From positions 547,529 to 611,528 of the forward strand of contig NW_019217861.1 of the NCBI RefSeq assembly GCF_002571385.2: 64,000 bases of DNA. Reading direction: 5' to 3'. Origin of the DNA: Stylophora pistillata. Lineage: Eukaryota. Of this stretch, positions 13,920 through 16,900 are shown one piece after another (position 1 is the first letter of the stretch; each line of letters begins with the position of its first letter). Both the position numbers and the translations under genes were made by a program. The notes beneath the pieces are model-generated. The model was not told where the DNA came from. It did not search any database and was given only the letters and a program-made list of their open reading frames with translations.

Positions 13920-16900
13920 CTATGAGAGAGATTTAAACTTTCTTTTCATGATTCTAACAATACAACACTCATTTCCGTTAACATCTGGATACCCCTTATC
14001 GCTGAAGCCTTCCAATGCTGGACACACGTCCTGCCAACGGTCATTAAATTGCTGCAGTTCTCCTTTAACGGCTTTCTGTGACGGTCCGTCAAGAATTTCA
14101 CATACGTCCTTTCCAAGCCGGTTGACTCGATCAACCTTGACTTGCATTGATGGCTTTTCCTCTAGTTTAATCTAGAACGAAGAAAAAGGGTGAATGTTGC
14201 ACATTAAGAAAAAGAGAGGTCAAATATCTGCAGAAGTTTATTTTTGCGTTCTATTTGTGAAGATACCAATTTGCCAAAGATGAATCAGTTTGTCTCGAAT
14301 TCGATGATTCTTTGAAGCTGCATCAGTGGAATAGTGTCAATAATATTTCTGCGCTGTTTGATGGGTCGAGGCGATCCTATTATGCTGACCAACATCGATG
14401 AAGTGATGAGTAAAACTCAGGTCAATAAACAAAAGATTGAGGCTTTAGTTCCACCAAAAGCGAAAATCTAATGGCTTAGCTAATGAAATGCCGCACAACG
14501 TACAAGTACCTGAGCTCTTTTCTTAAGGTTCTCTTGCTCGTCAGAAGGCAAATCTTCTTTGTATTCATTCATCAACGCTTTCCCGTCGTCCACCCACTGA
14601 TTAACAGAATCCACCAGGTCATACATCTCTTTCATTTTGTTTTGGGTATTTACCAACTAGACGGAAGAGAAAATAAACATGCAAATTATTACAATGTGGG
14701 GGATAGGAGGGCACAAAGCCATCCCATTAATCGAGGCTTTTCATGTCCCTGACGAGTAATTTCCCGTTTTCCACCATTTCCAATCCTGTTCACTAACTTA
14801 ATTCGTCTATCTTCGTTCCCTTCACAGATTTGCCTCGTTGATAGAGGCAGTAAAAGGTATAGGGATTTTAACCTACGATCTTTCTCTTTATTTATCGATT
14901 CCATAAGTTGCAGATAACATATTACTAACTCTCTCTGCTCTTGTGATCGTAAGCTGCAAAAAATTCTTCTGACTCTAAATTAATCTGAAATAGCAGTAGA
15001 GATATTGGGCGACTCTGCCACAGAACTTCAATCACTGTGTTAATGCAATCGACTTTCATGGCTAAGCAAAGTACAACAGGGTTCCACAAAATGTTGCTCA
15101 ACACTTTAGATGCAAGATTGTTTTTAGAAACCAGTAAAATATCTATGTTTACACACCTTTTCCTTTTCATCAATGACTCTCTTGGCAACATGATTCCAGC
15201 AGTCGTCAAAGTCTTGTAATTGTGCTTCAATTTCCTTTGTTGTCTCTTCGTCGCTACCCGAATCCTCAATAAGGTCTTTCCCCAATTGACGGAGCCTTTG
15301 CAGTCTTTCCTCCTGTTCTTCAAGCTCCTTCTGAGTTGTCTGTTGGTATATTTACAAACTTGATAAAACTGGATCAATCGATCATTATACGTGTGGCCGA
15401 ATTTTTTATCTTTTAAGGAATGACTTTCAAAATTATTTCAAAGAATGCAGGTGATTAATACAAAATGGCGTGGAGAAGGAATATCCTCTGAATGAGAATT
15501 ATATCTCTCGAAACCGAAGGAAAGTCAAACATCTTGCACTACCACTGAATTATTCTAACTAGGTGTAATACTTACCTCAAGAAGTTCAAGGCTTTCCTTG
15601 ACCTGTTGTTCGTCAGCAACATCAGTATTCGACACCTCTTTGAGAGTTTTCTCTTTCTGGCTGAGCCAGTTTAGAAGAATAAGTTCTTCATCTCGAAATT
15701 TCTGCCAGTCGATCATTGCTTTGGTTAGTTTCTGGTTTCGATCCTCACTCCAATTCCAGGCCGTTGCCCACCTTTCGTTCACAGTTTTGATTTGTTCGCG
15801 AGTTTTACCATCCAAATCTGGGTCTGTTGAATCAATCCTCATTACCGAAGCCACTAAAGACATGTCACCAACTCCTTCTTGAAATTTCTGAGGTAAAAAA
15901 AAAAAACCGCATGCTCAACATATTGCTATCAATAAACTTACGAGTTTTTACCAATGAGCTTTTTCTTTGTCTATCGATACTTTTCTTTTCCCGTGTTAAA
16001 CATTGAAAGTACGCATATGCTCTTTGCCAGTTCGCATGGGGCATGAATACCTCGATGTAACATGAAAACATTGATTTGACAATTACCTGATGTTCCTCCA
16101 ACTGCTCCTTAACAGTTTCGTAGGTAGGGCCAATGTCATCTTCTTTGTCCATCTTTTGCTCGGCCTTTTTCAACCATATGGTCATTTTGTTTAACTGCTG
16201 TTTCAAAAGTACGGATCTCTCCTGTGAAAGCCTAAGCGGGAAAAAAACAAAACCAAAAAAACAACTACGTTAATAACTTAGCTTGTTTGATTCACATCTA
16301 ACGTATTCAAGGTGGTAGTACTTAATCGTTTTCGAGAGTAAATGTCAACTCTGCTCTTCGATCAATTTTAATGAGCAGTAAAACATAGCACGGGGTCATT
16401 CACTGTTACAATAATCATATCCCTGAACAACTCACTTGTCCTGATCCCTCTGGGATTGCTCAAGAAGATTTTGCAACCTTTTATCGACGTTATCCATCCG
16501 GTCTTGGAAGTGCTCCTTTTCACCTAAATCAAAGTATCCTTCCCCTATCAACGATCGTCCTTCATTCAAAACTTCATAAGTACGAGACTTTACTGGCTCA
16601 AGGTCCTGGCGAAATTTCTGTTTAGAATTAAAAAAAATTTAAATGAAAAAGTAGTTCTCTTCTGTCTAATGAGTTATCTTACTGTTGACGAAAGGCACTT
16701 TTGACATTTCCAGCCCTGGCAAAAAGGCGTCAATTACGTCACTGCTCAAACTCAGATAGCCCATTAACAATGATTGAAGTGATGAAAATTATGATTTTTA
16801 AGTAAAAATAGGTAGGTCATCGCTCAATCTTTACGAGGGATGAATATTGATACATAGTCAGCACGTCATGCATTACAGTAACGAATTTCCAACCTGTTGT

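What the first reader, a model, noticed from the sequence alone, without database searches (positions are those of the whole stretch)
13920..13995. Shared Cys + polybasic C-terminal tail may be a lipid membrane anchor replacing dystroglycan binding
Seen: gene A ends GYPDVNGNECCIVRIMKRKFKSLS*; gene B (45232-45303) ends DYPFVKPDDCFLVKCLKKALVVN*. The common pattern is YPxV-x4-C-(C/F)-(I/L)-V-(R/K)-x-(M/L)-K-(R/K). Knowledge: cysteines next to hydrophobic and basic residues are typical S-palmitoylation / inner-leaflet targeting signals. Inference: these proteins could link F-actin directly to membrane lipids without the dystrophin glycoprotein complex.
Basis: partly seen in the sequence, partly recalled or inferred. 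Interest (0 to 1): 0.72.

Follow-up and report, generated by a model that had tools for sequence, protein, structure and literature searches.

The report
Coral half-dystrophins with lipid-anchor tail
Two neighbouring coral genes encode only the front part of dystrophin (the actin-binding end and a few rod repeats) and finish in a short cysteine-plus-positively-charged tail, conserved in hard and soft corals, that likely takes a fatty acid and would tie actin to the cell membrane without dystrophin's usual membrane partner.

Summary
Both tails are in the sequence and lie in spliced last exons. A and B are paralogues, so their likeness is inheritance, not two independent signals. Each protein is two CH domains, four spectrin repeats (three collinear with dystrophin R1-R3), a proline linker and the tail; there is no WW, EF-hand or ZZ domain. 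The tail also closes a third, longer coral paralogue class and an octocoral protein. Its first Cys is present in 29 of 29 chosen tails, followed by hydrophobic and then basic residues. It is not a CaaX box, membrane span, classical NLS or PDZ ligand. The layout matches the S-acylation signals of GAP-43 and PSD-95 (PMC6944663). Best reading (about 0.6, inferred): an S-acylated anchor that works with the lipid-binding R1-R3-like repeats. Acylation, localisation and actin binding are untested. B is only weakly basic, and 'replacing' dystroglycan holds for these proteins only, since cnidarians are reported to keep full-length dystrophin. My searches found no paper describing this family.

The parts
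13920..13994 (-). Gene A tail: Tyr-Pro linker, Cys-Cys, hydrophobic run, basic run, stop
   Evidence: translation; predicted unstructured linker then a separate low-confidence helix
13121..14171 (-). Gene A last exon: end of spectrin repeat 4, tail, 3' UTR; AATAAA at 13142, poly(A) end near 13121
   Evidence: RNA joints, depth and poly-T loose end; signal position
14510..17047 (-). Gene A rod exons: three repeats collinear with dystrophin R1-R3 and the start of a fourth
   Evidence: tblastn, RNA joints, HMMER alignment to dystrophin 345-719
17394..21073 (-). Gene A exons for CH1, CH2 and the short hinge
   Evidence: tblastn, RNA joints, Pfam CH x2
23303..23377 (-). Gene A first coding exon 1b
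   Evidence: 100% to the start of P0043; loose read ends at 21074 match it by eye
25140..25252 (-). Gene A alternative first coding exon 1a (lower boundary approximate)
   Evidence: match to the start of P0003; translation; one RNA contig's loose end matches its 3' part by eye
32212..34907 (+). Gene B exons for CH1 and CH2 (more diverged from dystrophin than in A)
   Evidence: tblastn with P0012; 119 bits against the dystrophin actin-binding domain versus 190 for the A type
35335..38718 (+). Gene B exons for a long Ser/Thr- and Glu-rich linker absent from A
   Evidence: tblastn, alignment, RNA joints from 37651 on
40225..44398 (+). Gene B rod exons, repeat by repeat homologous to those of A
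45053..45900 (+). Gene B last exon with tail and 3' UTR (3' end not pinned; AATAAA at 45892 and 45970)
   Evidence: RNA joint 44398/45053 and contigs; signals
45232..45303 (+). Gene B tail: Tyr-Pro linker, Cys, hydrophobic run with a second Cys five residues on, short basic run, stop
   Evidence: translation; predicted separate helix 226-237 in the 238-residue model

Best explanation
Genes A and B are expressed paralogues of a coral and octocoral family of C-terminally truncated dystrophin-like proteins whose conserved Cys-hydrophobic-basic tail is likely an S-acylated membrane anchor that would tie F-actin to the inner membrane leaflet without dystroglycan. Shown: architecture (CH-CH, variable insert, R1-R3-like repeats, fourth repeat, Pro linker, tail), terminal-exon status, absence of WW/EF/ZZ, conservation of the Cys and the basic pair. 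Predicted: the tail is a separate short helix beyond an unstructured linker, with the Cys at its start. Inferred: (1) the basic run first draws the tail to acidic lipids; (2) a DHHC enzyme acylates the Cys (two adjacent in A and C types, one or two in B); (3) the R1-R3-like repeats add lipid binding; (4) the CH pair binds F-actin, giving a short, reversible actin-membrane tether whose length differs between paralogues.
For: Cys in 29 of 29 chosen tails that reach the linker and in 111 of the 121 proteins held, the other 10 being fragments without this exon or unrelated (highly redundant). 14 of 14 metagenome loci carry Cys-Cys, a basic run and then a stop. In 27 tails: position +3 hydrophobic 27 of 27, +7 K/R 27 of 27, +8 K/R 24 of 27 (P0027 and P0031 dropped first). 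Only 25 of 345 columns are invariant over 17 A, B, C and octocoral proteins; the linker Pro and the tail Cys are the only two past the last repeat. The tail is the most basic 12-residue window of the acidic A protein (net +5 against -31 overall). Synonymous changes outnumber or equal replacements in the tail codons while the UTR has diverged. A GAP-43/PSD-95-like rule, written after seeing the tails, hits only the tail in 14 of 14 long proteins, 61 of 28,000 shuffled ends and 43 of 1,517 six-frame ends of the window. GAP-43 residues 1-13 (two Cys in a hydrophobic stretch, then basic residues, net +3) suffice for acylation and membrane targeting, and PSD-95 behaves alike (PMC6944663; abstract, passages and section 17). 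Dystrophin R1-3 binds lipid vesicles (PMC8385511, first half of text). An added palmitoylation motif moves dystrophin repeats from cytosol to muscle membrane (PMC6251231, passages).
Against: No acylation, localisation or actin-binding data exist. Cys conservation alone is not special: Cys161 in CH2 (13 of 13 with that domain) and Cys611 in repeat 3 (14 of 15) are also kept. Relatives were found with the last exon as query, which favours tail-bearing hits. The second Cys varies: adjacent in A and C types, five residues on in 7 of 9 B-type rows, absent in three octocoral-group rows. B is only net +2 to +3, and acidic residues precede the Cys (D/E at -1 in 25 of 27). Amphipathic moment is modest. 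Two relatives keep the Cys but lack the in-register basic run in the predicted protein (Nematostella model P0027, fragment P0031), and one (P0026) runs on for about 30 residues; whether these are prediction errors was not resolved. The known signals it resembles are N-terminal, this one is C-terminal. Tail confidence in both models is low (pLDDT about 56-65).
Confidence: 0.6

Rival explanations
1. The tail is a short protein-binding motif (for a membrane protein, an adaptor or calmodulin, or for the protein's own rod or a second copy, as in an actinin-like dimer); the Cys is kept for packing or redox control.
For: Predicted helix on a flexible linker, the usual form of a docking motif. The invariant linker Pro and near-invariant Tyr suggest a fixed geometry. 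Two CH domains plus four repeats is the same count as alpha-actinin (recalled).
Against: The residues after the Cys vary by class (hydrophobic, basic) rather than by identity, and the last residues are free to vary (14 different last-four strings in 26 tails), as expected of a lipid signal. No PDZ-type end, classical NLS or CaaX (0 of 26 each).
Confidence: 0.2
2. The tail binds acidic membranes without acylation, as a hydrophobic-plus-basic helix; the R1-R3-like repeats supply most of the binding.
For: Net +3 to +5 with four to six hydrophobic residues. Dystrophin R1-3 binds lipid by itself (PMC8385511). Truncated dystrophins without the cysteine-rich domain can reach the sarcolemma (PMC6171037, passage).
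Against: Does not explain why one position is Cys in 29 of 29 tails and never Ser, Ala or Val. Hydrophobic moment is modest (0.26-0.49 in A and C types, 0.30-0.35 in B).
Confidence: 0.15
3. The genes are truncated or mis-predicted pieces of a longer dystrophin, and the tail is a neutral read-through remnant.
For: Automatic names call them 'utrophin-like' or 'dystrophin-like'; the whole genome was not available to check.
Against: Spliced, polyadenylated last exon for A and continuous UTR for B. Same stop region in orthologues across both major stony-coral lineages (lineage assignment recalled). Purifying pattern in tail codons. No WW, EF-hand, ZZ or spectrin hit in 64 of 64 downstream frames of A and 32 of 92 of B (weak for exon-sized pieces).
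Confidence: 0.03

Closest known systems
Dystrophin / utrophin (N-terminal actin-binding domain, hinge 1, repeats R1-R3)
   Same: Best match among solved structures for A (268 bits), B (166 bits) and the rod alone (93 bits, the only protein matched); R1-R3 collinear with dystrophin residues about 341-661.
   Different: Only four repeats in A and B; no WW, EF-hand, ZZ or C-terminal domain; ends in the Cys-basic tail. The CH pair alone scores about equally to utrophin, dystrophin and beta-spectrin (about 202-206 bits).
GAP-43 N-terminal 13 residues and PSD-95 N-terminus (S-acylation signals, PMC6944663)
   Same: One or two Cys in a hydrophobic stretch followed within ten residues by a basic cluster, with no prenyl or myristoyl signal.
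   Different: No homology, only layout; those signals are N-terminal and experimentally proven, this one is C-terminal and untested.
Short N-terminal utrophin isoform (Zuellig et al. 2000, PMID 10760950)
   Same: A natural N-terminal-only product of the family; seen only as a reference-list entry in PMC3401230, paper not read.
   Different: Recalled as a splice isoform of the mammalian gene; here there are separate genes with their own conserved last exon.
Engineered dystrophin R16/17-GFP-Pal (PMC6251231)
   Same: Dystrophin repeats held at the membrane by an appended lipidation motif, independent of the dystrophin complex (passages).
   Different: Synthetic, Ras-derived motif, no actin-binding domain.
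Nesprin-1/2 and alpha-actinin
   Same: Tandem CH domains plus spectrin repeats with a C-terminal targeting or regulatory element (recalled); the two-repeat model of B aligns to nesprin and spectrin repeats at Z 13-15.5, tied within noise for helical bundles.
   Different: No membrane span (best 19-residue hydropathy 1.42, inside CH1) and no KASH or EF-hand Pfam hit.

Membership tests
Dystrophin/utrophin (full-length) | Tandem CH actin-binding domain | tested here: met
   Pfam CH x2 in A and B types; alignment to dystrophin 11-241
Dystrophin/utrophin (full-length) | Repeats R1-R3 of dystrophin type after hinge 1 | tested here: met
   collinear match, 81 bits (A) and 62 bits (B); rod alone matches only dystrophin entries
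Dystrophin/utrophin (full-length) | Long rod of 22-24 repeats | tested here: not met
   four repeats in A and B; C type has more but is incomplete at its 5' end
Dystrophin/utrophin (full-length) | WW, EF-hand and ZZ domains that bind beta-dystroglycan | tested here: not met
   no such Pfam hit in P0002 or P0012; transcripts end after the tail
S-acylated Cys-hydrophobic-basic membrane signal (GAP-43/PSD-95 type) | Cys within a hydrophobic stretch | tested here: met
   Cys 29 of 29; +3 hydrophobic 27 of 27, +2 25 of 27
S-acylated Cys-hydrophobic-basic membrane signal (GAP-43/PSD-95 type) | Basic cluster within about ten residues after the Cys | tested here: met
   +7 K/R 27 of 27; net +3 to +6 in A and C types, +2 to +3 in B; absent in 2 of 29 predicted sequences
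S-acylated Cys-hydrophobic-basic membrane signal (GAP-43/PSD-95 type) | Cys accessible, outside a folded domain | tested here: inconclusive
   predicted beyond an unstructured linker at the start of a low-confidence helix; no contact map was available
S-acylated Cys-hydrophobic-basic membrane signal (GAP-43/PSD-95 type) | Thioester-linked fatty acid and Cys-dependent membrane localisation | not testable with these tools
   needs acyl-biotin exchange and imaging
CaaX / CC / CXC prenylation | Cys at -4, or CC/CXC at the very end | tested here: not met
   0 of 26 tails
Nesprin (KASH) | C-terminal membrane span and KASH peptide | tested here: not met
   hydropathy of the last 40 residues at most 0.86; no KASH hit
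Alpha-actinin | C-terminal EF-hands | tested here: not met
   no EF-hand hit
Alpha-actinin | Antiparallel rod dimer | not tested

The most novel reading that the evidence does not exclude
This lipid-anchored family is a survivor of the separate actin-binding, spectrin-repeat gene whose fusion with a sponge-type R20-WW-EF-ZZ gene is proposed to have built full-length dystrophin (PMC10293626, section 7). On that reading the front half of dystrophin began as a self-anchoring, fatty-acylated actin tether, and corals still carry at least three natural 'micro-dystrophins' that work without dystroglycan.
Probability: 0.12. Interest if true: 0.82.

Novelty: new variant of a known kind. Interest (0 to 1): 0.52.

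Why it matters
A 2023 review states that invertebrate genomes hold no dystrophin paralogue and that diversification of the complex is vertebrate-specific (PMC10293626, section 5). Here at least three coral paralogue classes keep dystrophin's actin-binding end and its lipid-binding R1-R3-like repeats, drop the dystroglycan-binding end, and share an old tail that looks like a fatty-acylation signal. If acylation is confirmed, this is a natural actin-membrane tether of the dystrophin kind that bypasses the glycoprotein complex. That would bear on how dystrophin was assembled in evolution and on whether a lipid anchor can stand in for the cysteine-rich domain in miniature dystrophins. The test is a cheap one: a 25-residue GFP fusion and one Cys change.

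Tried and rejected
Whole-genome search: no genome is held, so a separate full-length dystrophin in this species was not checked, and no cnidarian or bilaterian dystrophin sequence was available for a tree; the origin (partial duplication or pre-fusion survivor) stays open. ESM Atlas: the last 198 residues gave only generic spectrin-repeat clusters; the 30-residue tail gave nothing above 0.85. Foldseek on the A model gave no match at E 0.001, best rows spectrin, dystrophin and utrophin repeats; the wide search on the B model covered residues 1-220 only and says nothing on the tail. Helical-wheel support is weak. CaaX, CC/CXC, classical NLS, PDZ-type end and membrane span were rejected. Convergence of A and B tails was rejected in favour of paralogy. 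Trees recover A and B as firm clades (100/100) with C and the octocoral outside, but A+B is not firmly supported (89-92 bootstrap) and the octocoral branch is long. Literature: ten searches listed no paper on this family. One search was swamped by general coral papers (0 of 30 listed held 'utrophin-like' or 'dystrophin-like'), subscription journals are mostly missing and no supplements were read, so absence from print is weakly shown. Earlier scan notes had nothing relevant.

Full report
Observation. Both tails are present as described: A on the minus strand at 13994-13920, B on the plus strand at 45232-45303. B's last exon is 100% identical to a RefSeq protein named 'utrophin-like isoform X2 [Stylophora pistillata]' (P0012), and A's is 100% identical to P0043 of the same species, so this is stony-coral DNA. 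RNA from 4 of 4 runs laid shows canonical splicing into both last exons. For A, coverage runs through the stop to a poly(A) end near 13121, with AATAAA at 13142. For B, contigs run from 45053 past the stop into the UTR. The tails are therefore real protein ends.

Anatomy. A (about 757 residues, two alternative first exons) and B (about 1,049) lie head to head and share intron positions. Pfam finds two CH domains and spectrin repeats and no WW, EF-hand, ZZ or KASH domain. Against solved structures the best match is dystrophin: the CH pair aligns to residues 11-241 and the first three repeats run collinearly with R1-R3. The rod alone matches only dystrophin entries. A fourth repeat follows. AlphaFold models of the C-terminal 175 (A type) and 238 (B) residues show the last repeat ending, an unstructured linker holding Tyr-Pro, and a separate 11-12 residue helix of low confidence whose start is the conserved Cys. 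B has a long low-complexity insert between CH2 and R1.

Chance and paralogy. The A-B likeness is inherited: the last exons align over 76 residues at E 1e-16, and the tail helix is less alike between types (0.24) than the repeats (0.30-0.43), while within A orthologues it is as conserved as the CH domains (0.82). So the two window genes count as one observation, and conservation in relatives is the test.

Relatives. Searches with the last exons found A-type proteins named from Oculina, Orbicella, Acropora, Montipora, Pocillopora and Porites, and B-type proteins from Pocillopora, Oculina and Porites. A scan of metagenome contigs gave 14 loci; 9 belong to a third class, C, whose longest transcript encodes more than 1,270 residues of repeats ending in the same four-repeat block and a Cys-Cys-basic tail. 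A Paramuricea clavata (octocoral) protein ends in the same last repeats and a one-Cys tail with Lys-Arg-Arg. Trees give firm A and B clades with C and the octocoral outside; A+B is not firmly supported. Of 121 proteins held, 111 reach the linker and all carry the Cys; the other 10 lack the exon or are unrelated. In 29 chosen tails the Cys is present in all. Dropping P0027 and P0031, which lack the basic run as predicted, the remaining 27 show hydrophobic residues at +3 (27), K/R at +7 (27) and +8 (24), and D/E at -1 (25). Over 17 long proteins only 25 of 345 columns are invariant, and the linker Pro and tail Cys are the only two past the last repeat; the two basic positions are among 7 of 55 K/R columns basic in all, with a two-residue gap needed for the octocoral. 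Tail codons show synonymous change and the UTR falls to background identity. Against this: hits were selected with the last exon; two other Cys are nearly as conserved; the Nematostella 2007 model keeps Cys-Cys but not the in-register basic run, unresolved; no named hit outside Anthozoa was found, though several fragments are unnamed.

Mechanism. The tail is not a CaaX box, a membrane span, a classical NLS or a PDZ-type end (0 of 26 tails for each motif). Its amphipathic moment is modest and the Cys do not lie on the hydrophobic face, so it reads better as blocks: Cys, hydrophobic, basic. That is the layout of the GAP-43 and PSD-95 signals, where basic residues give first contact with acidic lipid and the Cys are then acylated (PMC6944663: abstract, passages, section 17). 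A rule of that form, written after seeing the tails and so not an independent test, hits only the tail in 14 of 14 long proteins, 0.2% of shuffled ends and 2.8% of six-frame ends of the window. Dystrophin R1-3 binds lipid vesicles on its own (PMC8385511, first half of the text), truncated dystrophins lacking the cysteine-rich domain can reach the sarcolemma (PMC6171037, passages), and an appended palmitoylation motif moves dystrophin repeats to the membrane (PMC6251231, passages). I commit to an S-acylated anchor at about 0.6. Rivals are a protein-docking or dimer motif (0.2), non-acylated lipid binding (0.15) and a neutral remnant (0.03). Acylation, localisation and actin binding are all inferred.

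Comparison with the known. These proteins derive from, or share an ancestor with, dystrophin's N-terminal part but fail the defining test for membership (no dystroglycan-binding domains). Reviews report dystroglycan and full-length dystrophin in cnidarians (PMC4582122, passages; PMC10293626, passages and sections 5 and 7), so the family probably works beside the complex rather than instead of it; I could not check this genome. The same review says invertebrates have no dystrophin paralogue, which this family contradicts if it is dystrophin-derived. A survey of the superfamily (PMC1790709, passages) has no mention of cnidarians. Ten searches listed no description of the family; this is weak for subscription journals, and no supplements were read.

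Verdict. Real, conserved and apparently undescribed; a new variant of a known kind. Interest 0.52.

Noticed in passing
window 24457-27652 versus 53752-57558: A 3 kb segment holding gene A's first exon 1a and upstream DNA is duplicated at 84-87% identity, same orientation, just upstream of polyketide-synthase exons; the copied exon has lost its ATG.
   Followed up: partly
window 49758-53411, minus strand: Exons of an animal polyketide/fatty-acid synthase-like gene (acyltransferase and dehydratase domains); no ketosynthase exon was seen by eye upstream, where the duplicated segment lies, so it may be 5'-truncated.
   Followed up: partly
window 10762-10920, 11421-11600, 12185-12420 and 4800-5027, plus strand: Three look-alike Cys-rich coding stretches and a signal-peptide-like frame; possibly exons of a secreted repeat protein or small peptide genes. 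No Pfam hit.
   Followed up: partly
L002 2-3814 and L003 46-2973: Third paralogue class (C) with many extra spectrin repeats, one of which resembles dystrophin/utrophin R1, ahead of the shared four-repeat block; its N-terminus is missing, so CH domains are not shown.
   Followed up: partly
P0027 (Nematostella model EDO31611.1); window 23303-23377 and 25140-25252: The anemone model contains look-alikes of both alternative first exons of gene A, suggesting the two starts are old (by eye).
   Followed up: no
P0053, P0054 (gene A stop at window 13920-13922): Two variants read through the stop and add eight residues, so the exact C-terminal end may not be critical.
   Followed up: no
P0003/P0016, P0039/P0040, P0044/P0092: A and B types appear linked in other corals too: equal longest-contig lengths in Oculina and Porites lutea, near-adjacent accessions in Pocillopora meandrina. 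Orientation not checked.
   Followed up: no
window 61240-61545 plus; 63454-63999 minus; 46000-48900 minus: A nuclear protein p8 (NUPR1-like) exon, a class C GPCR exon with a nine-cysteine domain, and LINE reverse-transcriptase-like fragments right behind gene B (by eye).
   Followed up: no
window 36974-37094 and 41009-41126: A short, highly repeated element inside gene B introns that draws very high RNA depth on both strands.
   Followed up: no
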